Source: Erysipelotrichaceae bacterium
Lineage (GTDB): Bacteria; Bacillota_I; Bacilli_A; Erysipelotrichales; Coprobacillaceae
Assembly (NCBI GenBank): GCA_028698185.1
Contig: JAQVDW010000018.1
Coordinates: 1 to 32,000, forward strand
DNA: 32,000 bases
Direction of reading: 5' to 3'
Shown here: piece after piece, positions 1 to 27,273 of the stretch
Numbering within the stretch: the first letter of the stretch is position 1
Layout: every line of letters begins with the position of its first letter
The notes under the pieces: generated by a model
The model's database searches: none
Told to the model about the DNA's origin: nothing
Seen by the model: the letters and a program-made list of their open reading frames with translations, nothing else
Made by a program: the position numbers and the translations under genes

Positions 1-110
1 TGAGTATTCCGACAATTGAGAGCCACTCTGTCCGGATTTGAGAGCCACCCTGTCCATTGTTCAGAGCCACTTTGCAAATATTTAAATGTTCACTCACAGA
101 GCCACCTCTT
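1..110. repeat. IS21 left terminal inverted repeat with reiterated transposase-binding repeats
   Basis: GAGAGCCACTCTGTCC is at 18-33 and GAGAGCCACCCTGTCC at 40-55. CAGAGCCAC is at 62-70 and CAGAGCCACC at about 97-106. Confidence 0.8.
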
Positions 111-172
111 TTGGAGTAGAATTGAAGTGTAGATTATTGTCTACCTTGCATCTACTAAGGAGGTGTTTTTTC

Positions 173-1717
173 ATGCAAGAAATCAAGAAAATTCTTGAGA
201 AACGTTTTAATGGCGAGAGCCAACGAGCCATTGCTTCATCGCTTCATTTATCGCGTAATACTGTCAGCAGGATTTTTAAGGCTGCTGATAATTCCGGATT
301 GACTTGGGTTCAGTTCCAAAGTATGGATATCGCTCAAATCAGTTCTATTCTTTTCCCTGAGTCAAAATATATTCCTATTCAAGTTGTCCCTGATTTTGAG
401 TATATCCATAAGGAATTACTTAAAGCCGGTACATCAATCAGGGGACTTTGGCAGGAATATGTTGATCAGTGCAAAGACGCGTCTTTGCCATTCTATCATC
501 GGTCTAGATTTTCAGAAATGTACCAGGATTATGTAAAGAAAAATAATTTGACGATGCATATTCATCACAAACCAGGCGACAAAGTCATGGTTGACTGGGA
601 TGGCGTGACTATGAACGTATTTGATCATTTGACTGGCGAGCAGTGCAAAGCTTATTTGTTTGTCGCAACATTACCTTTCAGCATGTACACTTACGTTCAG
701 GCCTGCCCGAATATGAAGCAGGAGGAATGGATCAAATGTCATATCAACATGTACAACTACTTCGGTGGTGTTACCCGCCTTCTTGTTCCTGACAATCTGA
801 AAACGGGTGTCATTGATAATCGCAAATATCAGGATCCCACAATCAATAAAGTGTATCAGGAAATGGCTGATCATTATGATACCTCGATATTACCAGCCAG
901 AGTCAGGAAACCAAAGGACAAAGCGGCGGTAGAAGGCAGCGTTGGCACGATTACAAACTTTATCGTCGGTAGATTGCGTAACCGAAAATTCTTCTCATTT
1001 GAAGCATTGAATAAAGCCATCTGGGAACTGCTAGAGACATACAACGATAATCCCTTCCAAAAAAGAGAAGGTAGCCGCAGGAGCGTTTATATCGACGAAG
1101 AGAGCAATTATATGCTGCCTTTACCAACAGAGCCATTCGAATTAAGTGAGTGGAAAAGACCGATTGTACAGTTGAATTATCACGTTAACATCGACCATAT
1201 GCATTACTCGGTTCCCTATGAATACGCGGGTAAAAGAGTTGATGTCCGGTCTACCGCCAATATTATCGAAGTATTCTATAAAGGTACCAGGATATGCAGC
1301 CACAAGCGCCTTCGTGGTAAAAGCAATCAATATTCAACCAATGTAGATCACATGCCTGAAAATCATCAATTATATCAGTGGAATGGTGAAAGATTTGAGA
1401 AATGGGCAGCATCGATCGGTGAGGCGACCCACGAAGTTGTGCATAAATTGCTCCATAAATATAAAGTCGAAGAGCAAGCATACAAGGGGTGCCTTGCATT
1501 ACTGAAGCTCTCCGACAGATACACATCAACTAGATTAGAAAATGCCTGTCGTTTAGCCCTCGACCATATTTCCCAACCCAGCTATAAAAATATTAAATTG
1601 ATTTTGGAATCTGGTCAAGATTTATTGAGAAATAAAGGCAATGAAAGGACCGCTGCAGGCGATAGTAGTCATGCTTTCGTTCGTGGCAAAGAATATTACG
1701 GAGGAAAACTCAAATGA
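173..1717 (+). CDS. istA: IS21-family transposase IstA (HTH plus DDE integrase core)
   Basis: Based on track ORF 86..1717. The start is moved to ATG 173 (MQEIKKILEKRF), 9 nt after AGGAGG at 158-163. The N-terminal HTH (SQRAIASSLHLSRNTVSRI) and the overall layout are typical of IstA. A paralogous fragment at 12459-12922 shares about 78% amino-acid identity by eye. Confidence 0.93.
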   Translation: MQEIKKILEKRFNGESQRAIASSLHLSRNTVSRIFKAADNSGLTWVQFQSMDIAQISSILFPESKYIPIQVVPDFEYIHKELLKAGTSIRGLWQEYVDQCKDASLPFYHRSRFSEMYQDYVKKNNLTMHIHHKPGDKVMVDWDGVTMNVFDHLTGEQCKAYLFVATLPFSMYTYVQACPNMKQEEWIKCHINMYNYFGGVTRLLVPDNLKTGVIDNRKYQDPTINKVYQEMADHYDTSILPARVRKPKDKAAVEGSVGTITNFIVGRLRNRKFFSFEALNKAIWELLETYNDNPFQKREGSRRSVYIDEESNYMLPLPTEPFELSEWKRPIVQLNYHVNIDHMHYSVPYEYAGKRVDVRSTANIIEVFYKGTRICSHKRLRGKSNQYSTNVDHMPENHQLYQWNGERFEKWAASIGEATHEVVHKLLHKYKVEEQAYKGCLALLKLSDRYTSTRLENACRLALDHISQPSYKNIKLILESGQDLLRNKGNERTAAGDSSHAFVRGKEYYGGKLK

Positions 1718-2451
1718 GCGAACAAACCATAGATAAACTTAAACAAATGAGATTGCCAGTTTTTGCGGAAGAATATCAAAATCAAAAAGGAAATCCAGAA
1801 TATATGAATCTATCATTTGACGAACGATTAACCCTGTTGGTTGATCGGGAATATGATTCAAGAATCAATCATACAATCGATAAGAACATAAGAAACGCCA
1901 AACTTTATGACTCCAATGCCTGCTTGGAAGCAATCAACTATCGACCGGAACGTCAAATTGACAAGGATCTGATCAAAGAGCTTGCAAATAATCACTATCT
2001 CGACGATGGACTTAATATCATCATTATCGGAGCATCCGGCTGTGGCAAAACATGGCTGTCCAATGCCTTTGGCGTCAATGCCTGTAGAGCCAAAAAGAGA
2101 GTTAAGTATATGCGACTACCCGAGCTTCTATCCGATTTTGAGATAGCTAAAATACAAGGAACATATCGCAAGCTACTTAAACAGTTAGGCCGGTATGATT
2201 TACTTATACTTGATGAATTTCTTTTAACCTCAGTCAATGAAAATGAGAGAAATGATATTCTGGAATTGATGGAATCAAGATGCAACAAGCGCTCGACAAT
2301 ATTATGCAGCCAATGGTCGCCGGAAGGTTGGTATCAACGTTTAGGTGAAGGACCGGTTGCGGATGCGATTTTGGACAGGATTATAAACAGCTCATACAGC
2401 ATCCTGTTGCAAGGTTCATCGATGCGCGAGGTATATTCGAAGATAAAATAA
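1714..2451 (+). CDS. istB: IS21-family helper ATPase IstB
   Basis: Walker A is IIIGASGCGKTW and Walker B is LLILDEF. The gene is translationally coupled to istA by an ATGA overlap. Confidence 0.95.
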   Translation: MSEQTIDKLKQMRLPVFAEEYQNQKGNPEYMNLSFDERLTLLVDREYDSRINHTIDKNIRNAKLYDSNACLEAINYRPERQIDKDLIKELANNHYLDDGLNIIIIGASGCGKTWLSNAFGVNACRAKKRVKYMRLPELLSDFEIAKIQGTYRKLLKQLGRYDLLILDEFLLTSVNENERNDILELMESRCNKRSTILCSQWSPEGWYQRLGEGPVADAILDRIINSSYSILLQGSSMREVYSKIK

Positions 2452-2875: not shown

Positions 2876-2960
2876 TGGTGCGGGTGACAGGACTTGAACC
2901 TGCAAACCCGAAGGCGCTAGAGCCTGATTCTAGTGCGTCTGCCAATTTCGCCACACCCGC
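2876..2960 (-). tRNA. tRNA-Leu (anticodon CAG), long variable arm, encoded CCA
   Basis: The minus strand reads GCGGGTGTGGCGAAATTGGCAGACGCACTAGAATCAGGCTCTAGCGCCTTCGGGTTTGCAGGTTCAAGTCCTGTCACCCGCACCA. The acceptor pairs GCGGGTG with CACCCGC. The anticodon stem is CTAGA/TCTAG with loop ATCAGGC. The T-loop is GGTTCAAGTCC. Confidence 0.9.
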
Positions 2961-3273
2961 ATTTACATAAGAGACATAAATTTGTCTACCCGATTATTAT
3001 AACACAATCTCATAAAAAGCCAAGAGTTTTTTTGAGATTTTTTTCTTTCATTTTATCGGCGTCAAGAGTTGATACGTTACCGTCGCTCTAGGGTGCTTGA
3101 AGTTACCTGCTGCCCCTCATGTTTATTGAAGTCCGAGTCGATTTTCTAGAGGACCGATCAATTTTGGAAGGGCAACCGGTTTATTTTCTTAACTGATTTA
3201 GAAAATCTTTGGCTGATAAGATCAACAGTGATAGAATAAGACCTATAACAGTTACAAGAGGGGGCTTGCAGTT

Positions 3274-5441: not shown

Positions 5442-5984
5442 ATGATCGAAGAAATTTTAAAATTCAATGAAGCATTTGTAGCCAAAGAAGAATATGTCAA
5501 GTATGCCACAAGCAAGTATCCAGACAAGAAAATTGCGATTGTCTCATGCATGGATGCCCGGCTTACTGAACTTTTGCCTGCGGCTCTTGGTCTTAAGAAC
5601 GGTGATGCCAAGCTGATCAAGAATGCCGGTGGGATCATCTCCCATCCATTTGGAAGTGCCATTCGCAGTTTGCTTATCGCCATCTACGAACTCGATGTTG
5701 AGGAGATCCTAGTCATTGGCCACACCGACTGCGGCGCGCGCCATACCGACAGCAAAGTGATGATCGAAAAGATGAAGGAAAAGGGAATCAGTCAGAAAAA
5801 CATCGACCTGGTGAAATATTTCGGAGTCGATTTTGAAAAATGGTTAGGCGGCTTCAACGATGTCGATGCCACCGTTATCAACTCGGTCGAGACCATCCGC
5901 AACCATCCGCTGATCACCAAGGACATCAAGGTATATGGGTTTGTCATCGATTCTTATACCGGAAAAATGACCAAAGTCATCTAA
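5442..5984 (+). CDS. Beta-class carbonic anhydrase
   Basis: The zinc-ligand motifs are VSCMDARL (CxDxR) and GHTDCGA (HxxC). The start is moved to MIEEILKFNEAF (ATG 5442), giving a 180-aa product. Confidence 0.85.
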   Translation: MIEEILKFNEAFVAKEEYVKYATSKYPDKKIAIVSCMDARLTELLPAALGLKNGDAKLIKNAGGIISHPFGSAIRSLLIAIYELDVEEILVIGHTDCGARHTDSKVMIEKMKEKGISQKNIDLVKYFGVDFEKWLGGFNDVDATVINSVETIRNHPLITKDIKVYGFVIDSYTGKMTKVI

Positions 5985-6024
5985 TTGTTAACTGTAAAAT
6001 ATGACCAACCGATCGGTGGACTTG

Positions 6025-6069
6025 AAAAATCCGCAGGAAACCCATACCGAGTGTTCCTGCGGATTTTTT
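6025..6069. terminator. Bidirectional terminator (15-bp stem)
   Basis: AAAAATCCGCAGGAA (6025-6039) pairs with TTCCTGCGGATTTTT (6054-6068). It lies between the convergent carbonic anhydrase and ZIP genes. Confidence 0.85.
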
Positions 6070-6104
6070 AATACAACTTATTCGCTTCTATGATGATGTT
6101 GGAG

Positions 6105-6929
6105 CTAACCTAGGGCCACATCCAAAACCATCATGACTGCAAAACCGACCAGGCAGCCAATGGTGGCGATATCGGTATTGGAACCACCCTTTTCCCGCTG
6201 TGCTTCGGGAATCAGTTCCTCGACGACCACATAGATCATCGCCCCGGCGGCAAAGGCCAAGGCATAAGGAAGCATCTGTTGCATCCTGACTACGGCGATG
6301 GCTCCGATGACCCCGGCAATGGGCTCGACAATTCCTGATGCCTGGCCATAGAGGAATGATTTGAAACGGCTGAAGCCTTCCCGGCGCAATGGGATGGATA
6401 CTGCAGCCCCCTCGGGGAAGTTCTGCAGCCCGATTCCGATGGCCAATGCGACTGCTCCGGATATCGAAGCGGTAGTTCCGATGCCTGCCGCCACCGCGCC
6501 AAAAGCGACGCCAACCGCCAACCCTTCTGGAATGTTGTGCAGGGTTATCGCCAGCACAAGCAGGACGCTTCGCTGCCAGTTTGTTTTGATCCCTTCGGCC
6601 TGGGAAGTGTTGAGGCCCATATGGAGATGGGGCAGCAGGTTGTCGATCACATACAGGAAAGCTCCTCCTAAAAGAAAACCGGTGGCTGCCGTGATATAGG
6701 CGACTTGTCCGAGTTCGGTGGCCATCTCGATGCTTGGGGCCAGAAGCGACCAGAAGCTCGCCGCGACCATTACCCCGGCGGCAAATCCCAACATGGCGTT
6801 GAGGACTGTTTTGTTGATGACTTTGAAAAAGAATACCATGGCGGCTCCCAGCGCGGTGACCCCCCAGGTGAAAAGTGTAGCGAACAGTGCCTGTTGAAAC
6901 GGACTGAACTGGCTGATCCATTGAATCAT
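6105..6929 (-). CDS. ZIP family (ZupT/GufA-like) divalent metal transporter
   Basis: A 274-aa polytopic protein with a glycine/alanine-rich TM core and the [10 protein letters not shown] and LQNFPEG motifs typical of ZIP transporters. The start is ATG 6929 behind AAGGAGGGG. Confidence 0.85.
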
Positions 6930-7230
6930 ATATTTCCCCTCCTTGTATATGTGTCGAATATGATCGTTTTTTATCATTTTACCTTTTCGGGTTTGGGAAT
7001 TCAAGAAATGTGCTAGTGAAATTACAGTTGCCAGCATCGGTGGCTTTATTTTATTGTTATCCGACGATTGTGGCAGCGATTATCAAGAACTTTCTGGAAT
7101 ATGACAACTTGAAACAATCCGGGAAAAGTAAATGGTGCTTCCTGCAAACACAAAGAGACACCGAATTCCTAGGTTGGACATGCCTCCTTTTTGATGGTTC
7201 AATCCGCAACAGTTTGCCATGTTGCGCGTT

Positions 7231-8367
7231 TTACAGCCTGGTGACCATCCGGATCGCAAAGATAAGCCGGTTCATGGGGGATGGATTGATTACGATGGCT
7301 TTTTTCGGGCAGACCGACATGCAGTAGTAGCAGCTGATGCAGCGTTTTTGATCGATGGCTATCCTGCCATCCTTCAAAGTTATGGCGTTGACGGGGCAGG
7401 ATGGAATGCACTCAAGGCACCCGTTGCACTTGCTTTGTCTTACCTTGAGGTTGACGAAAGTCTTGGTCACAAATATGCTGCTGTTGTTGTAGGGCAGGTC
7501 AAGCGGGGTCTTGATCAGTTTGGCAAAAAGAAACTGCGGACATTGTCCGATGACCTGGATGTCATCTTCACTCTTGATCATGCCCCTTTTGATGGCCTGG
7601 ATGAAAACGGGGATCTCATCCACATTGTAACCGATCATCTTGGCGGCGACGAAGTCGAGGGCGGCGGGATTTCTCGAGGCGAGGACGACTCCGGTAGCTA
7701 CGGGTTTGCCCAGGGCGGTCGGTCCTCCGTCAAGGCTGAATATCGCGTCCATTACCGAAAGGGTCGGCTTGATGTTTTGGTGGATGTCGATGAAAACGTC
7801 CCCCAGCTCGAATTCGCTGTTTACCCACTGGTGGATTTTCTGCTTGTAGCCTCCGGGCAGACAGCCGAACATGTTCTTGATGGCTCCCGAAAACCGGGTG
7901 GCGCTGTGGGTCTTGAGCTTGCAGGCATCGATGATCAGATCGACTTCGCTTAAAATCGCGGGCATGTACAATTCCCGCAGTCCGTCCGGCCGGTCAGGAC
8001 CTATGTCAATCTTCGCCAGCCGGCATTTTTCGAATTCGACCAGGCGGGCCTGATACTTTCTGGCGACTTTATCGATTTTCGAGGTCACGAATGCCTTTTT
8101 GGTCAGACCCCGCTGGAAAAAGGCAATAGATTCGCCGATATAGATCTCGTTGTTTCTTTCCTGGCAGAGCCGGCACAGGGCATCGATCAGGGCATAATGG
8201 GTGATCGTATGCTGGTTTGGGCTGTTCTGGGACACGAGATTGGGTTTTATCAGAATCTTCTTGTTTTCCGGCAGCTCGAAGCCGATATCTTCGATGGCCT
8301 TTTTGACGGCAAGGTAGACGGCTTCCAGTTCATAAGTGGGGCAACTGACAATTGATACTTGTTCCAT
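7231..8367 (-). CDS. DUF362 domain protein with C-terminal 2x[4Fe-4S] ferredoxin domain
   Basis: The N-terminal part is DUF362-like (ILIKPNLV...). The C-terminus has two CxxCxxCxxxCP clusters, CNGCLECIPSCP and CISCYYCMSVCP. Confidence 0.75.
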   Translation of the reverse strand: MEQVSIVSCPTYELEAVYLAVKKAIEDIGFELPENKKILIKPNLVSQNSPNQHTITHYALIDALCRLCQERNNEIYIGESIAFFQRGLTKKAFVTSKIDKVARKYQARLVEFEKCRLAKIDIGPDRPDGLRELYMPAILSEVDLIIDACKLKTHSATRFSGAIKNMFGCLPGGYKQKIHQWVNSEFELGDVFIDIHQNIKPTLSVMDAIFSLDGGPTALGKPVATGVVLASRNPAALDFVAAKMIGYNVDEIPVFIQAIKRGMIKSEDDIQVIGQCPQFLFAKLIKTPLDLPYNNSSIFVTKTFVNLKVRQSKCNGCLECIPSCPVNAITLKDGRIAIDQKRCISCYYCMSVCPKKAIVINPSPMNRLIFAIRMVTRL

Positions 8368-8948
8368 TGGATTTCCTCCATTCCCTTGATGGTTCCTCTA
8401 CAATCAGTGTAGCACTTCCAGCCTGTTTTCTCAATTTATTTGATGGCTCATATCGCCCGTCAATAACATGTAAAAAAGCCGGGAATAGTCAAAGGCTGGA
8501 TGTGACAAGGTGTTCACTGCTGCCGGTTTTTAAGCCGACAATTCGCTAGAAGAAGCGTTGGAAGAACTTTGCGATGATATTTCATGAATCGTAGATACAA
8601 TCGCTCCAGAAAAGGTCCTGACCGCTGTCCATAAAGAGTATCGTGCAATTCGGGTAATGGAATAATATGTTGAAGGATTTGTAACTGTAATCAGTATCAA
8701 ATCAATCTGTCAATGGGGTGAATTTTGGATTTGGAACGATGCGGCCACGCTGCGTCCTTTTTAATCGCTTTGATAAACGGCTTTATTTTCTGGAATTGAG
8801 GATAAAAAAACATCAAGAAACTTTAAGAAAGCCTTGGATAATATTGTTGGAATATCAATATTAGGCAGTATGGTAGTGGCTGGTATAATAATTGCTATCG
8901 TACTACCTGCTTATCATGCATTTATAAAAAAATAGGTTTTGCTAGTAG

Positions 8949-8972
8949 AAGTCATGTAATTATGACTTTTTT
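8949..8972 (+). terminator. Rho-independent terminator just upstream of the retron promoter
   Basis: AAGTCAT (8949-8955) pairs with ATGACTT (8962-8968), with a T-run at 8967-8972. Confidence 0.6.
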
Positions 8973-9065
8973 AATTTTATGTCGGATTGAACCAAATTTT
9001 TCTAATTGTCGTCTACTATATGTGCCTAATTCAAGCGTAAAAATGTAATATATTTAATTTATGTA

Positions 9066-9094
9066 TTGAAAAAATGTAACATTATATATAAAAT
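9066..9094 (+). promoter_or_regulatory. Sigma-A-type promoter for the retron ncRNA/RT transcript
   Basis: The -35 is TTGAAA (9066-9071), followed by a 17-nt spacer and a -10 of TAAAAT (9089-9094). The predicted transcription start falls at about 9101-9102, exactly where inverted repeat a1 begins. Confidence 0.6.
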
Positions 9095-9101
9095 AAATGT
9101 A

Positions 9102-9230
9102 GCGCATGGCCAGATTTTTCGTTTGTGTTTCGCAAATGTTGAAAATAATGTTGGGCAGAATTGCTCCTTATATAACGCTTACGGTTATACTTGTATATAC
9201 GTATCATTAGCATATTGAGTGGCCATGCGC
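9102..9230 (+). ncRNA. Candidate retron msr-msd non-coding RNA
   Basis: A perfect 11-bp inverted repeat closes the unit: GCGCATGGCCA (9102-9112, a1) and TGGCCATGCGC (9220-9230, a2). G9113 directly follows a1 and is a candidate branching G. Internal hairpins are CGTTTGTG/CGCAAATG (9120-9138) and TATAAC/GTTATA (9170-9188). The unit sits immediately 5' of a retron-type RT on the same strand. Confidence 0.7.
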
Positions 9231-9247
9231 CTAATGGGTGGAAATTT

Positions 9248-10912
9248 ATGAACAAACTATATAAAGTAAAGACTAAAAGAGATTTGGCAGATGCTCTTGG
9301 GATCCCGTATAGAAAACTAACGTATATGCTCTACATATATAAAATTGAAAACTTCTATGAATCGTTTGAAATTGATAAGAAATCTGGCGGAAAAAGAAGG
9401 ATAAACGCCCCAAGAGGAGACTTGCTTGACTTACAAAGACAACTGGCAATGATGCTCGCCGATGTGTATGATAATATAAACGAAAACTGTCGAACTTTTT
9501 CGAACATTTCTCATGGATTTGAAAAAAGAAAAAGCATTATCACTAATGCAAAAATGCATAAAAACAAACGTTATGTTCTTAATTTGGATATAAGTGATTA
9601 TTTTGATAGTTTCAGTTTTGCAAGGGTTATGGGGTTTTTTATAAAAAATTCCAATTTTGAAATGTCAATTGAAGCGGCAACAGTGCTTGCACAATTAACT
9701 TGTTATGAAGGTAAATTACCCCAGGGAGCTCCAACCTCGCCCATTATTTCAAATATGATTTGTAGGATATTAGATTTGCGAATAGCAAAGATTTGTAAGA
9801 GAAATAAAGTTGTGTATTCTAGGTATGCTGATGACTTAACTATCTCTACTAACAATAAATACTTCATTGAAAATTATGAAGATTTTGTATCTAAACTTAG
9901 AGATGAAATTGAGAGATTTGGATTATCTATAAATGAAAAAAAGACTCGATTGTTAACTAACTACGCGAGGCAAGAAGTCACGGGTCTTGTTGTAAATAGA
10001 AAGATAAGCATAAAAAGAGAGTATTGTAAAGATACTAGAGCTATGCTTCATCAATTATTGAAAACTGGCGATTTTTTAATAGATAAACATCCAGGAACAA
10101 TAAGGCAGTTAGAAGGCAGATTTGCGTTTATCAATCAGATTGATTGGTACAATAATAGTTTTGATGGCAATGATCATGGTTTATATAAACTTAATTCTAG
10201 AGAGCGTCAATACCAAAAATTCTTGTTCTATAAATATTTTTACGCTAATGATATGCCTTTAGTTGTTACTGAAGGGAAAACGGATATAATTTATCTTAAG
10301 GCGGCCTTGAGAAAATACCACAAAAAGTACCCATCATTAATAGAAATGAATAACGGAACGTATAGATACAAGGTTTCTTTTTTGAAAAAGAGCAAACGAA
10401 TTAGATATTTTTTAGGTTTTCAGCTTGACGGAGCAGACTCGATGATAAAGATATACAAATACTATACTAAAGGTGGGAATTGTCCGAATTATTTTGAAAT
10501 TATTAGTAAATTGAGCAAAAATGGACCATCTAACCCAGTGATATTACTATTTGATAATGAGCCTCAAAAAAATAAGCCATACTGTAAATTTAGACAAGAG
10601 GCAAAATTAAAAAACAGCCCTCCAGATAATACTAATTTGTCGGATAAACTAGAAGGTAATTTGTATCTTCTAACTGTCCCTATGATGCAAGGAAAATGCG
10701 AGAGTGAGATGGAAGATTTATTTCATGATTCGGTTCTTGAGGTTAAGATTGGTAGTAAAGAATTTAGTCGAGATCCGCACGCTGATTCTAGTAAATATTT
10801 CGGTAAGACTAAATTCGCCGAATATGTTCATAAAAATTTCGAAAATATTGATTTCTCAAATTTTGTGCCACTACTTGATGAATTGAATGATATAGTTATG
10901 AAATTTGAATGA
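9248..10912 (+). CDS. Retron-type reverse transcriptase fused to a C-terminal Toprim-like domain
   Basis: Based on track ORF 9191..10912. The start is moved to ATG 9248 (MNKLYKVK, RBS GGTGGA) because 9191-9247 overlaps msd/a2. RT motifs present are KKSGGKRRINAP, SHGFEKRKSIITNAKMH, LNLDISDYFDSF, LPQGAPTSP, YSRYADDLTIS (YADD codons 9824-9835), INEKKT and the retron-specific VTGLVVN (9977-9985). In the C-terminal region, PLVVTEGKTD (Glu codon 10271-10273) and ILLFDNE (10553-10561) resemble the Toprim E and DxD motifs. Confidence 0.88.
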   Translation: MNKLYKVKTKRDLADALGIPYRKLTYMLYIYKIENFYESFEIDKKSGGKRRINAPRGDLLDLQRQLAMMLADVYDNINENCRTFSNISHGFEKRKSIITNAKMHKNKRYVLNLDISDYFDSFSFARVMGFFIKNSNFEMSIEAATVLAQLTCYEGKLPQGAPTSPIISNMICRILDLRIAKICKRNKVVYSRYADDLTISTNNKYFIENYEDFVSKLRDEIERFGLSINEKKTRLLTNYARQEVTGLVVNRKISIKREYCKDTRAMLHQLLKTGDFLIDKHPGTIRQLEGRFAFINQIDWYNNSFDGNDHGLYKLNSRERQYQKFLFYKYFYANDMPLVVTEGKTDIIYLKAALRKYHKKYPSLIEMNNGTYRYKVSFLKKSKRIRYFLGFQLDGADSMIKIYKYYTKGGNCPNYFEIISKLSKNGPSNPVILLFDNEPQKNKPYCKFRQEAKLKNSPPDNTNLSDKLEGNLYLLTVPMMQGKCESEMEDLFHDSVLEVKIGSKEFSRDPHADSSKYFGKTKFAEYVHKNFENIDFSNFVPLLDELNDIVMKFE

Positions 10913-11524
10913 CCGCATGCCTCAGGTTGAAAATTCCAGTAGTGATATATCGAGATTTGGTAGTTCAAAAATCCAACTAATTTCTACATTTCAGATCATA
11001 TATCTTCTTTTCGCGAACCAAAAGTGATGCATACTGTGTTTTATGGGCATTTAAATTATGAAATGTGATTATTAAAATTTCAATACGAATTACTTTTCCA
11101 GAAGCAGCACTTAATTACTTTTTAACTAGAATCGATTAGCAAGTAATGGGTGGTTATAACAAGTAGACTTATATTGAATATGATAACTTTTGTTTTAGGT
11201 GCTAAGAAAGAAGAAACTTATCAGGAAAAATGAATGTTAACCTATTTGTTTAGGAAGGACTTGTCCTTGGAAGAACAATGCACTAGACCTATGATTATGT
11301 TAAAAGGGGGAATGTCGATGATTATTAGAGGATTTATCACTGGTTTACAAAGAATTTGTTTTAATGGCATTTCAATTAATCTTGGCCCTATAGGATTTAA
11401 TTTTGCTAGTAGTTCTTCCTAAATGAATAATAATGTTTGTATCTAATTTTGCAATCTAAACATCTTTTCGATATTTTCGTCAGTCAACGTACTCTGTTAC
11501 TATCAAAATCAATATTTTATTAAC

Positions 11525-11679
11525 TTAATACATTCCTGAATCGCCCAGATCGGCAGTTCTATTATGCACTAAATAATCGCATACTGGATGATCACTTGCT
11601 GCATCGTTCTGGATCAGTGCCAGGATCTCCAACGCTGATTTCAACGAAGTCACAAAGAAATATTCATTTTTTTGTCCAT
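11525..11679 (-). pseudogene. Small ORF (about 51 codons) interrupted by a frameshift in an A7 tract
   Basis: GGAGGTG plus 5 nt precedes ATG 11679. The frame reads MDKKMNISL then TGA. The +1 frame continues open as ...FFVTSLKSALEILALIQNDAASDHPVCDYLVHNRTADLGDSGMY then TAA (11525-11527). One extra A in the homopolymer (plus-strand T-run 11667-11673) would restore a 51-aa ORF. Confidence 0.35.
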
Positions 11680-11831
11680 GCTATCACCTCCATTCAAAAG
11701 TACATACTTAGTGGGAGGTGATTTTACTTTTAATTTTATAAATACAAGGTATAAGTAATAAGATATATCTATATACATATTGGTCTAATGTGGTTAAAAT
11801 GGAGTTAGATGATTAAAGAAAGGGAATTTAC

Positions 11832-12440
11832 ATGAAAGACACAGATAAAGCGTATTTTGAAATAGTTGATTTTTTACAAAATGCAGATTCGAAGTCATTG
11901 CTCTTAAAAGGTATCTCAGATGACGCGAAAGTCCAGTTGATGCTAAAATCCTTGCACGATGAAAAGCTACTAAGGGGTAGCGTTTATCTTATGCACATGA
12001 AAAAAGATGGGATTGAAAAGTTCTTTAGACCATTTAATATTCCTGGAAGGAAAAAAATCGCCCAATCAAAAACGTACGGTGAAGAAATTAGATTTAGTGA
12101 TATGCAACTAAGATTCTATAAGCTAAAATCATATACAGATTTTCTGATTAATGAAGGACAAATGGATTCTTTTTCGATAGTTTGGCCGATTCAAAGCGCA
12201 GTAGGGAATAGAGAAGATATTGCTAATCTAAAAAAATATATTGGCAGTGCTGATGTGAAGAAAATAATTCTAATCACTTACAATGTGGTACTTCAAGATA
12301 CAGAGGAGATTGAATCGATTGTTGATAAGGTTATAAAACTAGATAAGGAAAACGATGATCCAAAGGTATATAATAGAAGAATTGAAACCGCAAAATACAA
12401 TGATATTCGAAAAACTGCATTATCGGGCGAAAGATGGTGA
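11832..12440 (+). CDS. Hypothetical protein (202 aa), no recognisable motifs
   Basis: The ORF has RBS GAAAGGGA about 7 nt upstream of ATG 11832. Its AT-rich codon usage matches the retron insert. Its stop lies 18 nt from the IS21 relic breakpoint. Confidence 0.6.
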   Translation: MKDTDKAYFEIVDFLQNADSKSLLLKGISDDAKVQLMLKSLHDEKLLRGSVYLMHMKKDGIEKFFRPFNIPGRKKIAQSKTYGEEIRFSDMQLRFYKLKSYTDFLINEGQMDSFSIVWPIQSAVGNREDIANLKKYIGSADVKKIILITYNVVLQDTEEIESIVDKVIKLDKENDDPKVYNRRIETAKYNDIRKTALSGERW

Positions 12441-12458
12441 CATGTTTCCGCGTTTATA

Positions 12459-13071
12459 CCACGCAAATGATCAAATACGCTCATAGTCACGCCGTCCCAA
12501 TCAACCATGACTTTGTCGCCTGGTTTGTGATGAATGTGCATCGTCAAATTGTTTTTCTTTACATAATCCTGGTACAATTCAAAGTAACGGGTTTGATGAT
12601 AGAAAGGCAAAGATGCAGCGCGACATTGTTCCACATACTCACGCCACAATCCCCTAATGTATATTCCTGGTTTGAGTAACTCTTTATGGATGTAATCACA
12701 ATCAGGCAAAATTTGGACTGGTAGATACTTTTCATCTGGAAAAAGCAACGAATTAATCTCGACATCATTCATACTTTGAAACTGAACCCATGTCAATCCG
12801 GTATTATCAGCAGCCTTGAAAATCCTGCTGACTGTATTACGGGATAAATGAAGCGATAAAGCAATGGCTCGTTGGCTCTCACCATAAAAACGTTTCTCAA
12901 GAATTTTCTTGATTTCTTGCATGAAAAAACACCTCCTTAGTAGATGCAAGGTAGATTGTTATCTACACTTCAATTCTACTCCTAAAGAGGTGGCTCTGTG
13001 AGTGAACATTTTATATTTACAAAGTTGCTCTGTATGGTGAACACGGTGGCTCTCAACTAGCGGAATACTCA
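12459..13071 (-). mobile_element. Truncated IS21-family relic (IRL plus the first ~155 codons of istA)
   Basis: The terminus TGAGTATTCCGC is the reverse complement of the sequence ending at 13071, and GAGCCAC repeats are present. IstA-like translation runs from ATG 12922 (MQEIKKILEKRFYGESQRAIALS...DWDGVTMSVFDHL). Similarity to the full copy stops at about 12459, and there is no istB or IRR. The track ORF tail 12293-12458 is read-through into unrelated DNA. Confidence 0.88.
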
Positions 13072-17647: not shown

Positions 17648-17676
17648 GAATGAAATATCGTGCCCGGGGGAATCGT

Positions 17677-19146
17677 ATGCAACTAGAACCAATCAAACAA
17701 ACATCATATCTGACCGCTTTGAACGCTCATCTTTATCGCAGGATCATGCGGATTGTCTATCTTGAGTCGACCCACTACAACTACCATCTCGATCTTGAAA
17801 AGATAATGGAAAAACTGGAAAACGACGAGTTCGAGGGCGCAATCGATGAGCCGGCCGTAAAAAACGCTCTTGACGCCCTGGTGGACTGGGGCAATCTTAC
17901 CGCCATCCAGGATGCCAAGCAGGTCAACACGATTGCCGAATTCAAGGCTCGCAAGTTCCGTTATTCGATCAGTGATATCGCCCTGGAGGTCGAACGGATG
18001 GTGATGAAAATCGAGAACCTGACCGTGAAAAGCAACAGCGCCTCGCTAGGCTACCTCAAGCGGCTGTACCAGGAATTCAAAAAGATTCTCACTCTGAGTG
18101 ACGCAAGTGAAATGCAGCTTCTGGAGTGGTGGGAGTATGTCGGGAATGATTTTGCGACCTTGAACCTGGTTTATAGCGACTACCTCCGTGATTTTTCCGG
18201 TGCCAAGTCGCAAAAGCTGATGCAGTCACTTGAATTTTTGCAACACAAGGAGTACTTCGTCAGGATGCTCAAGGATTTCGTGACCCAGCTGCAGATTTAT
18301 GCCATTGAGTTCGAGAAGATTCTGATAAGTCTTGACCCTAATTACGTCACCAGTCTCCTTGAGCGGATCGTAACCGCCCAGAAGAAGAATCCTTCTTCGC
18401 TTGGTGCTCTTGAATACACCGATGAAAAGTACCTGAGGGATGGGGTCTTTGGCCGTTACAGCGAGCTGCAAAGGTGGTTTGTCAAACTGCCGGGAAGCCC
18501 GAGCGAAGTTGAACAGATCATGGATCGCACCAACGTCATTATCCGCCAGATCATCCAGAATGCGGGGCTGATCATCGACTTCCATGAGGGCATAATATCC
18601 AAGAAGGATGATTACCGCCATTACCTGAAACTTTTTGGCCGGATATCCGATCTTGGTGAGGCCCATAAGCTGGCGGCCCATCTTTTCGGGGTCCATGATA
18701 TCCGTCATTACCAGACCAATGCGCCAAGACTGAGTGAAAGCAGTGCGATTTCGACCTTCGCCGAGGCACCTCAGGTTTTCGAAGTCAAACCGATGACCCG
18801 CAAATACCGGATCAAGCAGGAAAAAATCACCCTGGTGGACCGGTCACTCGAAAAGCAGCTGCAGATCCAGGCGCATCAGGCGATGATTGCCAGCCAGATC
18901 AAGATCGCCAACACCTACATCAAAGCCAAACGGATCGACTTCAAGGATATCGTCGATGAGATATCGCCCGCGACCCGGTTGTTGCTGCTTTCGTGGGTTG
19001 CCAGTGCCAACGGCACAATCGACAAGGTCGGTACAAGCGAGTTTGGCCGACGCTTCAAACTAATGAAAATGGATGAGACCATCACATTGCGCTGCAGTGA
19101 CGGCGACTTGCAGATGCCCCGGTTCATCCTGGAATTCGAGGATTAA
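17677..19146 (+). CDS. jetA: Wadjet JetA (type II, DUF2397/TIGR02677-like)
   Basis: The product is 489 aa from ATG 17677 (RBS GGGGGA). The alternative ATG at 17650 would lie at or before the predicted transcription start. The N-terminus (TSYLTALNAHLYRRIMRIVYLE) resembles the TIGR02677 signature as I recall it. It is the first gene of a coupled four-gene SMC-like operon. Confidence 0.75.
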   Translation: MQLEPIKQTSYLTALNAHLYRRIMRIVYLESTHYNYHLDLEKIMEKLENDEFEGAIDEPAVKNALDALVDWGNLTAIQDAKQVNTIAEFKARKFRYSISDIALEVERMVMKIENLTVKSNSASLGYLKRLYQEFKKILTLSDASEMQLLEWWEYVGNDFATLNLVYSDYLRDFSGAKSQKLMQSLEFLQHKEYFVRMLKDFVTQLQIYAIEFEKILISLDPNYVTSLLERIVTAQKKNPSSLGALEYTDEKYLRDGVFGRYSELQRWFVKLPGSPSEVEQIMDRTNVIIRQIIQNAGLIIDFHEGIISKKDDYRHYLKLFGRISDLGEAHKLAAHLFGVHDIRHYQTNAPRLSESSAISTFAEAPQVFEVKPMTRKYRIKQEKITLVDRSLEKQLQIQAHQAMIASQIKIANTYIKAKRIDFKDIVDEISPATRLLLLSWVASANGTIDKVGTSEFGRRFKLMKMDETITLRCSDGDLQMPRFILEFED

Positions 19147-19147
19147 G

Positions 19148-20257
19148 ATGATACCTAAAGAACTGCTTGAAAACTTCTGGGTCCTTAAAAGCGACGACCC
19201 CAAGAAGTTCTATCAGTTGAAAAGAGAACTGAAACAGTCGCAAAGCTTCATCAACAACCAGATCGGATGGAAAGTCATCGCCAATGACAATCTTCTCAAG
19301 ATTGAAAAGACACCTTATCGGGCTTCGGGCTATATGGGAATCACGGATTTCAACGATGTTGACGACTACCTTTTCCTGGTGGCCACCCTGATCTTCCTCG
19401 AGGACAAGGGGGTGCACGAGCAGTTTTTGCTTTCGCAGTATATTGAAGGGATTGAAGTGATTTTGGGTGACCTGATCGAGCTGGACTGGACGAGCTATTC
19501 GCGGCGCCGGACTTTGATCAGGGTTATGGAATACTGTCTCAACCTGGCCCTGCTTAAGGTCACCGACGGTTCGCTGGAAGGCTTCAAAAGCGGCGGCGAG
19601 GGCGAGGTGCTCTATGAGAACACGGGACTTTCGAAGTATTACCCGGTCAGCTTCAATTTCGATGTCACCAAGATTGAAGGGGTCGATGATCTGGTTGTGG
19701 TGTTGAATGATTCAACCGACACCGTGCGCAATAGCGTCTATCAACAGCTGATCACCAGCCCGGGGGTGACCTGGAGCTCGAGTGAGGATGTCTTTGGCAA
19801 ATATCTCAAGAACCAGCGGTTCAACATCCAGAAAAACATCGACCGCTTTCTTTCTGGTGAGTTGATGGTATTCAAGAACTCGGCCTACTTGATGGTCTCC
19901 AGTGATGATAAATATGGGACCCTCCATCCCAGCGGCAAATCGATAAGTTCGCTGGTGCTGTTTGTCCAGAAGCGGATCGTCGAGATGTGCAACAATGGCG
20001 AATTGAAGCTCTTGGTTGAGGATGTGATCGAGATGGGTGCCGGCGATTTTGGCAAGCTTGTTGTGGGCGTATACAATCAGGTTCTGCCGGGATTGTCGAG
20101 CGAGTACCGCAATATGGACATAAACAATGTGATCAAGGCGGTAGTCGCCTATATGGAGGGCTTCCATCTGATCGAACTAGATGGAGCAAAGATAATAATA
20201 CAAGGGGCAGTGGCCCGCCATGAGGGAAGTTACCCTTATGATTTTGTGGAGGAATAG
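19148..20257 (+). CDS. jetB: Wadjet JetB (type II, DUF2398/TIGR02678-like)
   Basis: The product is 369 aa. The ATG lies 1 nt after the jetA stop. Size and position match the second gene of the TIGR02677-80 cluster. No motif was recognised directly. Confidence 0.65.
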   Translation: MIPKELLENFWVLKSDDPKKFYQLKRELKQSQSFINNQIGWKVIANDNLLKIEKTPYRASGYMGITDFNDVDDYLFLVATLIFLEDKGVHEQFLLSQYIEGIEVILGDLIELDWTSYSRRRTLIRVMEYCLNLALLKVTDGSLEGFKSGGEGEVLYENTGLSKYYPVSFNFDVTKIEGVDDLVVVLNDSTDTVRNSVYQQLITSPGVTWSSSEDVFGKYLKNQRFNIQKNIDRFLSGELMVFKNSAYLMVSSDDKYGTLHPSGKSISSLVLFVQKRIVEMCNNGELKLLVEDVIEMGAGDFGKLVVGVYNQVLPGLSSEYRNMDINNVIKAVVAYMEGFHLIELDGAKIIIQGAVARHEGSYPYDFVEE

Positions 20258-23200
20258 ATGAAAGAAAGATGGCAGATGCATCGGATGGGACTGGTGAATT
20301 TCTGGTATTTCGACGACCAGGAGTTCGAGTTTGCCAATGGCAAGCTTTTGATCCGGGGCCAGAACGGTTCGGGAAAATCGATATCGACCCAATCCTTCAT
20401 TCCGTTCATATTGGATGGAAACAAGGCGCCTTACAGGCTGGATCCCTTTGGGTCCAAGGACCGGCGCATGGAATATTATTTCCTGCTTGACGGCAAGAAT
20501 GATGAATCGGCCGGCTATATCTGGCTTGAATTCAAGAAAACCGGTTCAGAGCAGTACCGCACCCTGGTAATCGGACAGCGGGCCCGCAAGAACAGCGACA
20601 TGCAGTTCTGGAGCGGGATAATTCTTGACAACCGGCGGATCAACCGAGATTTTCAGCTAAAAAAACGGCTTGGCGACTCTTGGCAGATTCTCACCAAACA
20701 GGAGTTCAAAAACGCGCTTGGGGATAGCAACTTCTACTCCGAGCGGGCGGTGGAGTACAAGGCGGCGGTCAACAAGCATGTTTTCGGGTTCGACCAGCTT
20801 GACCAGTACGACCAGTTCGTGGACCTGCTTATCAAGGTGCGGGCTCCAAAGCTTTCCAAGGAATTCAAACCGACCAAGATCTACGAGATCTACAATGAAA
20901 GTCTCCAGGTTTTAAGCGATAGTGATATCCTGCCGATGGTCGAATCGATGGAAGAAATCGACCGGACCCAGGCCAAGCTCGATGAATTCCAGGCGACCAA
21001 AAAGGCGCTTGACAATGTCGGTCGCGTCTACAATCTCTACAATCGCTATTACCTGGGGAAAAAGGCGCAAAACTACACCCGTTATCGCGACGAGTTCGAT
21101 GACCTTTCCAGCCGGCTCAAAGACGGTCAGGACCGGTTTGAAGCCAATCAGGAAGCGCTAATAGATATCGCTAAAAGAACCGATGAGCTAAACGGGGCCA
21201 ATGCCCTGTTGCAAACCGAAAGGGCTGCGCTCCCGCTTGATGACATCGAAGCCAAGATTGAAAGCTACAAACAGGCAAAAGGGGAAAAGCAGGCTCAGGT
21301 CCAGGAACTAAAGGCCCATCAAGGCAAGCTGGATGCCGCCTTGGCGGAAAAGGATGTCAAAATCACCCAGCGGCGCCAGCTTGAACAGGATGGCAGCGAC
21401 TGCGAGTATCGGGTTTTTAAAGGGATCAAAGAACTTGATGCGATCAACGAAATCGCAAAGCTGCCAGGCCACGAAAAGATCCGCCGAATGGAAAGTCAAC
21501 GTGATCTTCTGGGACACTGTGATGAGCTTGAAGGGGAATTGAACAAAGTTTCCAAGCGGGTCGACCAGGTTCTTGTCTGTCTTGACCGGCGCCATCAAGA
21601 ACAACTCCGGCGCGACGAGCTTGCGCAAAACCTCGGCCTGGTCAATGAACAGATTGCCAACTGCAACAGTCTTCTTGATGGCAAGACCCGGGAGATTGAA
21701 AACGTAAGGGACGAACTGATCAACGGATTCTATCGTTTCGCGCAGGGAAGTCCCGCCCTCGATATCACAAGCAGGCTTAATGATCTGGCCAATATCATCA
21801 GGGAATACCAGGGCTATGGCGATTTTAGAATGATTGACCGGATTTTGATCGAGCTCAAAAGCGACCAGGCGCTGACTTTGAACAAGTCGATAATGGAGAC
21901 ACGCTTCGCCTTGGACAACTACCGGAAGGACCGGGATCTGCTTAACCGGGAACTCATCGCCCTGATCCAAACACAGGATCTGACATTTCCGGTCTCCGAG
22001 CTGGTTGGCCAAGGGCGCAGGATCCTTGCGGATAACGGAATTGATTTTATCAGTGTCTATCAGGCCTTGGAATTCGACGAGTCGCTTACGGAAAAACAGA
22101 AGAACATAATGGAAGCCCAGCTGGTGGCAACCAATCTCATCGATGCCATCATCGTCAATTACGAAAACTATGAAAAGGCCCGGGAGCTTTTAAGGGGCAG
22201 CGACCAGGTCCTGGTGGCTCTTGAAAGTCAGGAGGGGACGGGGACGTTCTTTGTCAAGGGGGACCATCCCCGGTTTGAGCGGGAAATCGATGATTTCATC
22301 GCGATGTTCGCTTCCAAAGGCCGCTTCGAACCTGACGGCCATTACCGCCATGGGCTGATGGAAGGTTTCGTTTCCGACAAAAAAGAAAGTCTCTATGTGG
22401 GTGAAAAGTCGCGCAAGGCCAACCGGCTAAGGCAGATCGCTTCGATCGAAGCCAGTATGGCAAAGCTCGAGGAACTTGTGGAATCGACGACCCAGGAAAT
22501 AAAAAGGCTAGAACAGATTGGAGCGCAGCTTGAGGAAGACTATGCCAGCCTCCAGGTTTTTGCCGACCTCGACCGGCTGCTCGAAGAGCTTGACGCGCTT
22601 GAAGTCCAGCTGGTCCAGGCGACCCAAAAACAACAGGAGCTTTCAAATCAGGTGGAGCAAGTCAAGGCCCGGCTGGTAAAAATCAAGAACGAATTGCTTG
22701 GAGCGGCCAGCGATCTGCCATACCATCTGGAAAGTGCCATCTATCAGGATGTCAGGGAAAGTCTAAAAGACTATCAGACCACCTTGAACCAGATCCACCG
22801 CGAATTGCTGCTCTGGGGAACCAAGAACACCCAGGTGCAAACGATCGGCGAGGTGATTGACAAGATTGGGGAACAGGTTGATGAATACTACGATTTGACC
22901 CGCCAGCTGGAAAGCCGGATTGCCAAGAACACCACCATCATCGCGACCATCGAGAATTACCTGAATCAAGAGTCAACCAAAGAGCTCCATGGGCGGGTCA
23001 GAAAAATCGACGAAGCGCTGGAAGCCAATGGGATTGAAATTGAAAAACTTGACAGCCAGCGGCAACATTACCGGGAAGCGAATCTCCTGCTTGAACGGGA
23101 TATCGCCCTGATGGCCAGCCAGTTGGAAAAAGCGAAGGCTTATCTTGATCTTTCAAGAGAACTTTTTGTCCAGGAACTCGATCTAGGATATGTTCAAGGA

Positions 23201-27002: not shown

Positions 27003-27079
27003 TGGCGGTCTGGACGGGACTCGAACCCGCGACCTCCGCCGTGACAGGGCGGCATTCTAACCAACTGAACTACCAGACC
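27003..27079 (-). tRNA. tRNA-Asp (anticodon GTC), encoded CCA
   Basis: The minus strand reads GGTCTGGTAGTTCAGTTGGTTAGAATGCCGCCCTGTCACGGCGGAGGTCGCGGGTTCGAGTCCCGTCCAGACCGCCA. Confidence 0.93.
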
Positions 27080-27087
27080 GTAAAAAA

Positions 27088-27178: not shown

Positions 27179-27273
27179 AGGTTTTTACTGCTTTTACATG
27201 ATAGCATTTATTTACATGTGTTGCAATACTTTTTTTCACTTTTTTCAAACACTGTCCAATGTTTAGAAAAAAA

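What the first reader, a model, noticed from the sequence alone, without database searches (positions are those of the whole stretch)
9066..9247. Compact msr-msd candidate: promoter-proximal 11-bp a1/a2 inverted repeat enclosing about 129 nt, ending 17 nt before the RT start codon
Seen in sequence:
- GCGCATGGCCA (9102-9112) and its perfect reverse complement TGGCCATGCGC (9220-9230) flank an AT-rich segment with local hairpins (9120-9138 and 9170-9188).
- A TTGAAA-17nt-TAAAAT promoter places the transcription start at about 9101, right at a1.
- A G (9113) follows a1 immediately.
- The six-frame track extends the RT ORF to 9191 using a non-ATG start, straight across this structure.

Established: retron ncRNAs are closed by the a1/a2 stem, the branching guanosine sits at the 3' edge of a1, and msr-msd precedes the RT on the same transcript.

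Inference:
- This is the retron ncRNA.
- G9113 is the priming 2'-OH.
- The msDNA would be on the order of 60-70 nt.
- I did not manage to fold a convincing long msd hairpin by eye, so the msr/msd boundary is undefined.
Basis: partly seen in the sequence, partly recalled or inferred. Interest (0 to 1): 0.7.

Follow-up and report, generated by a model that had tools for sequence, protein, structure and literature searches.

The report
Ordinary Ec67-type retron non-coding RNA gene

Summary

On its own the 11-bp repeat is weak evidence, because 8% of shuffles of the upstream 400 nt do as well. Homology settles it.
- The downstream ORF (9248-10912) is a retron Ec67-family RT-TOPRIM fusion. It scores E 8e-229 against PADLOC RT-Toprim_I-C and 624 bits against NCBIfam NF038237, and carries the DxE signature of variant I-C2.
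- A repeat followed by "GA" lies just upstream of the RT gene in nearly all of 80 homologous loci.
- A covariance model built from 65 of those elements, including E. coli Eco2 but not this window, matches 9101-9231 end to end (104.5 bits, E 4.6e-22).
- The a1/a2 stem and the msr hairpin (9120-9138) both show many compensatory changes.

Mapping onto the solved Eco2 complex gives branching G9113, a reverse-transcription stop at G9150/U9149, a first template base at A9218 and an msDNA of about 69 nt. The lack of a long msd hairpin is a family trait.

Verdict: interpretation supported; a new member of a known kind; low interest. msDNA production itself is untested.

The parts
9066..9071 (+). -35-like hexamer TTGAAA
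   Evidence: Listed by the promoter scan. TTG peaks 46-49 nt upstream of the branching G in 39 of 66 homologous loci, and the window's lies at -47. Its function is inferred.
9089..9094 (+). -10-like hexamer TAAAAT; predicted transcription start about 9100-9102
   Evidence: It ends 19 nt upstream of G9113. In 46 of 66 homologous loci a TATAAT-like box (at least 5 of 6 matches) ends 18-20 nt upstream of the branching G. The transcription start has not been measured.
9102..9112 (+). a1 arm of the closing stem (GCGCAUGGCCA)
   Evidence: Perfect 11-bp complement of 9220-9230. Ten of the 11 pairs show compensatory changes across 65 homologs.
9113..9113 (+). Predicted branching guanosine (2'-OH primer), homologous to Eco2 rG15
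   Evidence: The column is invariant in A2 and is G in 79 of 80 rows of A3. It aligns with Eco2 rG15, whose 2',5' bond to dT1 is seen by cryo-EM (PMC12405507).
9114..9119 (+). Single-stranded AUUUUU linker (Eco2 ssRa equivalent)
   Evidence: The conserved 'GAUUUU' motif is seen in the family alignment.
9120..9138 (+). msr stem-loop P1 (8 bp, loop UUU; conserved GUGUUUCGC core)
   Evidence: Six of its 8 pairs show compensatory changes and 96.3% of cells are paired. This helix was not used to pick the sequences. It corresponds to the Eco2 msrRNA stem-loop rG20-rU42, which bridges two RT subunits.
9139..9149 (+). Single-stranded UUGAAAAUAAU (Eco2 ssRb equivalent), ending in U9149, the homolog of the flipped-out rU51
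   Evidence: The conserved 'UUGAc.AAAAUG' motif is present. The column aligned with Eco2 U51 is T in 68 of 80 rows. Eco2 F46, which stacks on rU51, is F40 here, an invariant position.
9150..9218 (+). msd: predicted template for a 69-nt msDNA, 5'-TCAATATGC...CTGCCCAAC-3'. It includes the small hairpin P2 at 9153-9166. The first ~7-11 nt would stay as the RNA half of the RNA-DNA duplex.
   Evidence: The limits come from the alignment to Eco2: rG52 pairs with dC67 at the stop, and A118 templates dT1. The same rule gives 67 nt for Eco2, as published. This is inferred, not measured.
9219..9219 (+). 'Opposing' G at the 5' edge of a2 (not copied)
   Evidence: The three columns before a2 read GAG in 78 of 80 family members. 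'Two opposing G residues' are a general retron feature (PMC7736814).
9220..9230 (+). a2 arm (UGGCCAUGCGC)
9236..9242 (+). Shine-Dalgarno-like GGGTGGA, 5 nt before the ATG
   Evidence: Read from the sequence. Its function is inferred.
9248..10912 (+). Retron RT-TOPRIM fusion gene (554 aa), type I-C, DxE (I-C2) variant
   Evidence: PADLOC RT-Toprim_I-C, E 8e-229. NCBIfam NF038237 retron_Ec67_fus, 624 bits against a cut-off of 450. It is 37% identical to the Eco2 RT over the full length, with YADD and TEGKTD conserved. The best solved relatives are Retron Ec67 protein 9lm3 and 9i2f, E 1.3e-104. The ATG 9248 start matches the N-termini of homologs.

Best explanation
Window 9101-9231 (+) is the msr-msd non-coding RNA gene of a type I-C (Ec67/Eco2-family, DxE = I-C2 variant) retron. 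Its single protein gene, an RT-TOPRIM fusion, follows at 9248-10912.

Proposed mechanism, by homology to Eco2:
1. A sigma-70-type promoter (9066-9094) starts one transcript at about 9101 that carries both the ncRNA and the RT gene.
2. a1 (9102-9112) pairs with a2 (9220-9230).
3. The RT binds the msr stem-loop (9120-9138) and uses the 2'-OH of G9113 as primer.
4. It copies the msd from A9218 leftwards and stops at G9150, with U9149 flipped out. The product is a branched RNA-linked ssDNA of about 69 nt.
5. The msDNA-RT-TOPRIM complex keeps the TOPRIM nuclease caged. When a phage nuclease destroys the msDNA, RNA (tRNA) cleavage is released and infection aborts.

Shown here: the sequence features, the family membership of the protein, the homology and covariation of the RNA, and the positional conservation of the promoter.
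Inferred: the transcription start, msDNA synthesis and its exact ends, trimer formation, and the defence function.
For: - Protein: PADLOC RT-Toprim_I-C, E 8e-229. NCBIfam retron_Ec67_fus, 624 bits against a cut-off of 450. 37% identity to the Eco2 RT over the whole length, with YADD and TOPRIM motif IV (TEGKTD) conserved and motif V reading DNE. The closest solved structures are Retron Ec67 protein.
- RNA in other loci: an a1/a2 repeat followed by 'GA', ending about 15-30 nt before the RT start, occurs in nearly all of 80 homologous loci from Bacillota, Campylobacter, Bacteroidota and Proteobacteria.
- Covariation: an alignment of 65 such elements, without the window, has 97.4% of cells paired and 16 of 19 pairs with compensatory changes. 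None of 500 shuffles reaches the observed covariation score, and versions with the partners slid by 1-3 columns collapse to 23-51% paired.
- Model search: the model built from that alignment gives one significant hit in the 32-kb window (the only other, at 3018-3078, has E 0.59), at 9101-9231 on the + strand, full length, 104.5 bits, E 4.6e-22. It also hits 80 of 82 sources, in every locus checked just upstream of the RT.
- Conserved positions: the window agrees with 19 of the 20 columns that are at least 90% conserved.
- Eco2 reference: the Eco2 ncRNA sequence was found at 100% identity in 14 E. coli genomes next to the Ec67 RT gene. It aligns with the window element so that rG15, rU51/rG52 and A118/G119 fall on G9113, U9149/G9150 and A9218/G9219. 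The Eco2 positions are taken from PMC12916289 and PMC12405507.
- RNA-contacting residues reported for Eco2 (F46, K245, R247, H281) are F40, K232, R234 and H268 here.
- The promoter hexamers sit at the family's modal positions.
- The ncRNA is identical in four other metagenome contigs that carry the same RT.
Against: - There are no expression, 5'-end or msDNA data for this organism, which is a MAG.
- The 11-bp repeat alone is matched by 8% of shuffles.
- The a1/a2 arms in homologs were located by searching for the best stem, so the pairing percentage of that helix is partly built in. Its compensatory changes and the independent P1 helix are not.
- The conserved UAAUGAG before a2 reads UAUUGAG here.
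- The msDNA ends are extrapolated from a relative with 37% protein and 45% ncRNA identity.
- No I-C2 (DxE) retron is reported as experimentally characterised in the three held papers that mention the variant.
Confidence: 0.93

Rival explanations
1. The element is homologous to retron ncRNAs but the retron is decayed or inactive in this genome and no msDNA is made.
For: The locus lies in a low-GC tract (8500-13000) with an IS21 transposase remnant at 12293-12949. One highly conserved ncRNA position differs: A to U in UAAUGAG. No experimental data exist.
Against: The RT ORF is full length, with YADD, TEGKTD and DNE intact. Nineteen of 20 conserved ncRNA columns are kept, and both helices are fully paired. 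The promoter hexamers are at the family positions. The sequence is identical in four other samples.
Confidence: 0.05
2. The inverted repeat is a chance or generic regulatory hairpin (terminator, attenuator or operator of the RT gene) and not an msr-msd.
For: Repeats of 11 bp or more occur in 8% of shuffles of the AT-rich upstream region. The fold z-score is only -2.0.
Against: The element matches, end to end, a model built from other retron loci including Eco2 (E 4.6e-22). The branching G, the opposing G and the internal motifs are all conserved. No T-run follows a2, and the terminator scan reports nothing there.
Confidence: 0.01
3. The region is coding: either an N-terminal extension of the RT from TTG 9191, or the small ORFs 9066-9218 and 9106-9210 that gene callers report.
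For: The mechanical ORF list starts the RT ORF at 9191 and lists a 50-aa ORF at 9066-9218. A gene caller called a 34-aa ORF across the element in other contigs. PGAP likewise extends the E. coli Ec67 RT CDS over its ncRNA.
Against: RT homologs begin at the position of ATG 9248, where M1 is nearly invariant, and a Shine-Dalgarno-like GGGTGGA precedes it. The element's length varies among homologs by amounts that are not multiples of three. Its conservation pattern is that of paired RNA helices.
Confidence: 0.01

Closest known systems
Retron-Eco2 (Ec67) of E. coli, type I-C1: ncRNA plus RT-TOPRIM, with cryo-EM structures 9lm3, 9i2f, 9i2g and 9s1f
   Same: - The gene order is the same: promoter, msr-msd, then a single RT-TOPRIM gene.
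- The ncRNA plan is the same: a1, branching G, A-U-rich linker, one msr stem-loop with a GUG...CGC core, a linker ending in AAUG, the msd, GAG, then a2.
- The size is nearly the same: 131 against 129-132 nt of ncRNA, and a predicted 69-nt msDNA against the 67-nt one.
- In both, the msDNA shows no strong hairpin.
- The RNA-contacting residues and catalytic motifs are conserved.
   Different: - Protein identity is only 37% and aligned ncRNA identity 45%.
- TOPRIM motif V is DxE here and DxD in Eco2, so this is Mestre's I-C2 variant and not I-C1.
- a1 is 11 bp here and 13 bp in Eco2.
- The msd is AT-rich.
- The host is a Gram-positive Erysipelotrichaceae MAG.
- There is no evidence of the P2-like prophage setting seen in E. 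coli.
Structured RNA family 'IC' of Mestre et al. 2020 (RT clade 8 retron ncRNAs)
   Same: That paper reports a single consensus msr-msd structure for clade 8, covering I-C1 and I-C2. The model built here from 65 clade members describes the same kind of element, and the window matches it.
   Different: Mestre's own model was not available, so identity with it was not tested directly. Rfam 15 has no family that matches either this element or Eco2.
Retron-Eco1 (Ec86), type II-A
   Same: It shares the a1/a2 stem, the branching G, the msr-msd-RT order and a homologous RT (PDB 7v9u, E 4.5e-36).
   Different: Eco1 has a separate effector gene, an extra msr stem-loop and a long msd hairpin. Here the effector is fused to the RT and the msd has no long hairpin.

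Membership tests
Retron (msr-msd plus RT) | Reverse transcriptase of the retron clade | tested here: met
   All the best PADLOC hits are retron RT models. NCBIfam retron_Ec67_fus scores above its cut-off. YADD is present.
Retron (msr-msd plus RT) | ncRNA gene next to the RT on the same strand, closed by an a1/a2 inverted repeat | tested here: met
   The perfect 11-bp stem 9102-9112/9220-9230 ends 17 nt before the ATG. Ten of its 11 pairs covary across homologs.
Retron (msr-msd plus RT) | Conserved branching G at the 3' edge of a1, facing a G at the 5' edge of a2 | tested here: met
   These are G9113 and G9219. The columns read G in 79 of 80 rows and GAG in 78 of 80 rows. G9113 aligns with Eco2 rG15.
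Retron (msr-msd plus RT) | Production of multicopy RNA-linked ssDNA with a 2',5' branch | not testable with these tools
   This needs msDNA extraction or RT-DNA sequencing.
Retron type I-C (Ec67/Eco2 family) | RT fused at its C-terminus to a TOPRIM domain with motif IV EGxxD and motif V DxD or DxE | tested here: met
   The protein has TEGKTD (342-346) and DNE (436-438), both invariant among 33 homologs. The definition is taken from PMC7736814. PADLOC RT-Toprim_I-C scores E 8e-229.
Retron type I-C (Ec67/Eco2 family) | ncRNA of the clade-8 'IC' type directly upstream | tested here: met
   The model from 65 clade members including Eco2, without the window, gives 104.5 bits and E 4.6e-22 over the full length.
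Retron type I-C (Ec67/Eco2 family) | Single protein-coding gene, with no separate effector | tested here: inconclusive
   The neighbouring ORFs tested (11234-11422, 11832-12440 and 12293-12949; the first against NCBIfam only) match no defence family; the last matches an IS21 transposase fragment. Absence of a match does not prove that they play no part.
Retron type I-C (Ec67/Eco2 family) | Anti-phage defence that needs both RT and TOPRIM activity; msDNA-caged RNase | not testable with these tools
   This is known for Eco2 only (PMC12916289).
Variant I-C2 | DxE in place of DxD in TOPRIM motif V | tested here: met
   The window has FDNEP where Eco2 has LDNDT at the aligned position. The signature is stated in PMC7736814.

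The most novel reading that the evidence does not exclude
The DxE (I-C2) branch of RT-TOPRIM retrons, to which this locus and its Gram-positive relatives belong, has no characterised member in the held literature. It might differ from Eco2 in how its msDNA is sensed or in what its TOPRIM cuts. For example, an AT-rich msDNA with few dC sites might escape DenB-type nucleases, which cut before dC, and respond to other phage factors. The self-complementary TATAAC/GTTATA segment at predicted msDNA nt 30-48 lies where Eco2 msDNA (nt 29-50) forms an inter-subunit three-way junction, so it could serve the same role.
Probability: 0.2. Interest if true: 0.35.

Novelty: new member of a known kind. Interest (0 to 1): 0.15.

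Why it matters
- It adds little to biology. Type I-C retrons make up about 11% of retrons, and Eco2 is known down to atomic structure.
- It has practical value for annotation. The ncRNA is invisible to Rfam, and gene callers run ORFs across it, both here and in E. coli Ec67.
- The homology mapping gives concrete, testable coordinates: the primer G, the template ends and a 69-nt msDNA sequence. These apply to a Gram-positive I-C2 retron, a variant for which the held literature reports no experiment.
- Such coordinates are what is needed to reuse a retron as an in-vivo ssDNA source.

Tried and rejected
- Rfam found nothing for the element. Neither the gathering-threshold search nor the E-value search matched the window element or Eco2 itself, so the library does not cover the family.
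- I looked for a long msd or msDNA hairpin and found none. The predicted msDNA folds at -5.0 kcal/mol (z = -0.66), Eco2 msDNA at z = 0.05, and the family median z is -0.29. I therefore rejected 'no long hairpin' as evidence against a retron.
- I tested whether a central self-complementary segment, a possible three-way-junction former, is a family feature. The best stem averages 4.2 bp against 3.8 bp in shuffles, and the window's 6-bp stem has p of about 0.16. This is not supported as a conserved trait.
- The second hairpin, P2, just after AAUG has an MFE of -4 kcal/mol or lower in 81% of members (median z -1.29). Its register varies, so I did not obtain a formal covariation count.
- The statistics of the repeat alone and of the promoter scan alone are not significant.
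- The experimental retron census (PMC10849725) was checked for I-C data. It mentions only Eco2 and clade 8, and then in passing.

Full report
**1. The observation**

Reading 8700-9500 confirms every coordinate in the finding.
- GCGCATGGCCA is at 9102-9112 and TGGCCATGCGC at 9220-9230, a perfect 11-bp inverted repeat spanning 129 nt.
- G9113 lies directly after a1.
- TTGAAA (9066-9071) and TAAAAT (9089-9094) are 17 nt apart. The promoter scan also lists this site, with 10 of 12 matches.
- ATG is at 9248, 17 nt after a2. The mechanical ORF list begins the long ORF at TTG 9191.

Taken alone, these features are weak evidence.
- An inverted repeat of 11 bp or more appears in 8% of dinucleotide-preserving shuffles of the 400 nt upstream of the ATG.
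- The RNA fold of 9098-9247 closes a1/a2, but its z-score is only -2.0.
- Promoter-like sites are no more frequent than in shuffles.

**2. The gene behind it**

The ORF 9248-10912 (554 aa) is a retron RT fused to a TOPRIM domain.
- PADLOC RT-Toprim_I-C scores E 8e-229 over the whole length, and Pfam finds RVT_1.
- NCBIfam NF038237 'retron Ec67 family RNA-directed DNA polymerase/endonuclease' scores 624 bits against a cut-off of 450.
- An identical protein is on record from an Erysipelotrichaceae MAG under that same name.
- It is 37% identical to the E. coli Eco2 (Ec67) protein from end to end, with YADD and TEGKTD aligned.
- The closest solved structures are Retron Ec67 protein 9lm3 and 9i2f/9i2g/9s1f, at E 1.3e-104.
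- TOPRIM motif V reads DNE (DxE). Mestre et al. give this as the signature of variant I-C2, whereas Eco2 is I-C1 with DxD (PMC7736814).
- Homologs start at the position of ATG 9248, so the TTG 9191 extension is an artefact.

**3. The same element in relatives**

I fetched 80 homologous loci from genome assemblies. I then searched the 400 nt upstream of each RT for inverted repeats.
- Nearly all loci carry a repeat of 8-15 bp whose 5' arm resembles GCGTGTGGCTA.
- The arm is followed by 'GA', the repeat spans about 112-190 nt, and it ends about 15-30 nt before the RT start.
- The arms differ between loci, but the two arms always change together. Examples are GCGCATGGCCA/TGGCCATGCGC here, GCGTGTGGCTA/TAGCCACACGC in L005 and GGTGTGCAGGCA/TGCCTGCACACC in L062.

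I recalled the Eco2 ncRNA sequence from memory and then verified it. It is 100% identical to sequence in 14 complete E. coli genomes, directly in front of the Ec67 RT gene.

**4. Covariation and an independent model**

I aligned 65 distinct elements without the window (A2).
- RNAalifold and direct pair counting give two helices. The first is a1/a2, with 11 pairs of which 10 show compensatory changes. The second is an msr hairpin of 8 pairs, of which 6 do.
- 97.4% of cells are paired, and none of 500 shuffles reaches the observed covariation score.
- Versions with the partners slid by 1-3 columns fall to 23-51% paired.
- The a1/a2 arms were found by a stem search, so their pairing percentage is partly built in. 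The hairpin was not selected for, which makes it an independent test.

A covariance model built from A2 was then searched against the window and the loci.
- It gives one significant hit in the 32-kb window (the only other, at 3018-3078, has E 0.59), at 9101-9231 on the + strand: full length, 104.5 bits, E 4.6e-22.
- It hits 80 of 82 sources, in every locus checked just upstream of the RT. These include 14 loci that were not in the seed alignment.
- The window agrees with 19 of the 20 columns that are at least 90% conserved. The exception is UAUUGAG in place of UAAUGAG. Its length of 131 nt is typical (median 132.5), not compact.
- Rfam has no family for this RNA, not even for Eco2.

**5. Anatomy by homology to Eco2**

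The published Eco2 landmarks are as follows (PMC12916289; PMC12405507).
- rG15 is joined to dT1 by a 2',5' bond.
- The linker is rA16-rU19 and the msr stem-loop rG20-rU42.
- A second linker runs from rG43 to rU51, with rU51 flipped out on F46.
- Synthesis ends at rG52:dC67, and the msDNA is 67 nt.

In the model alignment these fall on the following window positions.

| Eco2 landmark | Window position |
|---|---|
| rG15 (branching G) | G9113 |
| rA16-rU19 linker | 9114-9119 |
| rG20-rU42 stem-loop | 9120-9138 |
| rG43-rU51 linker | 9139-9149 |
| rU51 / rG52 (stop) | U9149 / G9150 |
| A118 (first template base) | A9218 |
| G119 (opposing G) | G9219 |

- The same rule returns 67 nt for Eco2 and predicts 69 nt here. 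The family median is about 71 nt.
- The RNA-contacting residues F46, K245, R247 and H281 of Eco2 are F40, K232, R234 and H268 here.
- A small hairpin follows the stop site at 9153-9166. A hairpin at this place has an MFE of -4 kcal/mol or lower in 81% of members, but its register varies.

- The predicted msDNA folds weakly (z = -0.66), as does Eco2 msDNA (z = 0.05). The family median z is -0.29.
- This agrees with the cryo-EM finding that Eco2 msDNA forms an inter-subunit three-way junction and not a hairpin.
- The TATAAC/GTTATA segment (9171-9189, msDNA nt 30-48) lies at the corresponding place. However, central self-complementarity is not enriched across the family, so this remains speculation.

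**6. Promoter**

- In 46 of 66 loci a TATAAT-like box ends 18-20 nt upstream of the branching G. In the window it ends 19 nt upstream.
- TTG peaks at -49 to -46 in 39 of 66 loci. In the window it is at -47.
- This positional conservation supports a transcription start at or just before a1. No start has been measured.

**7. Context**

- The retron lies in a low-GC tract (about 0.30-0.34 from 9000 to 12500, against 0.46-0.55 upstream).
- An IS21 transposase remnant lies downstream.
- The same locus, with an identical ncRNA, occurs in four other metagenome contigs.

**8. Verdict**

The element is an ordinary member of a well-characterised family (type I-C, variant I-C2).

Still untested are the transcription start, msDNA production and its ends, and defence activity. 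The three held papers that mention I-C2 report no characterised member, which is the only mildly open aspect.

Noticed in passing
window 17650-25545 (+): A complete type II Wadjet system lies about 6.7 kb downstream of the retron. JetA2 is at 17650-19146, JetB2 at 19073-20257, JetC2 at 20258-24268 (1336 aa) and JetD2 at 24238-25545. All four give strong PADLOC hits.
   Followed up: partly
window 86-2451 (+) and 12293-12949 (-): An IS21-family element (transposase with rve/Mu-transposase C domains, plus IstB) sits at the left end of the window. A weak N-terminal IS21 transposase fragment (44 bits, below the cut-off) lies 1.4 kb downstream of the retron.
   Followed up: partly
window 8500-13000: This is a low-GC tract (0.30-0.39) that contains the retron, against 0.46-0.55 at 5500-8500. 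It suggests a horizontally acquired segment, but no boundaries or repeats were sought.
   Followed up: no
L081 2490-4430 (E. coli NZ_CP045712.1); L082 2859-2963: PGAP annotates the E. coli Ec67 RT CDS as starting 11 nt upstream of the Eco2 ncRNA, so the CDS runs across it. A gene caller also places a 34-aa ORF across the window's ncRNA in other contigs.
   Followed up: partly
L046, L053, L057, L059, L067, L074, L079 (Streptococcus and relatives); L049 (Brachyspira): This subgroup has larger RT-TOPRIM proteins (about 640-680 aa). Its ncRNA is longer (span 180-190 nt), with a shorter perfect a1 (GCGCATGA) and extra msd sequence. The model matches it at lower scores of 35-60 bits.
   Followed up: no
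L068 (Kiloniellaceae MAG): This is the only locus with upstream sequence that the ncRNA model did not hit. It has an 11-bp repeat followed by GA, but the repeat spans 209 nt.
   Followed up: no
window 11832-12440 (+), 11234-11422 (+): ORFs of 202 aa and 62 aa lie downstream of the retron; the 202-aa one has no Pfam, PADLOC or NCBIfam match and the 62-aa one, tested against NCBIfam only, has none there. They travel with the RT in the other contigs, but those appear to come from the same genome.
   Followed up: partly
window 27006-27349 (-), 2879-2960 (-), 24282-24387 (+): There are three clustered tRNA genes and a fourth next to the IS21 element. A sub-threshold ALIL pseudoknot match (22.9 bits against a gathering score of 50, E 0.046) lies at the JetC2/JetD2 junction and is probably chance.
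   Followed up: no
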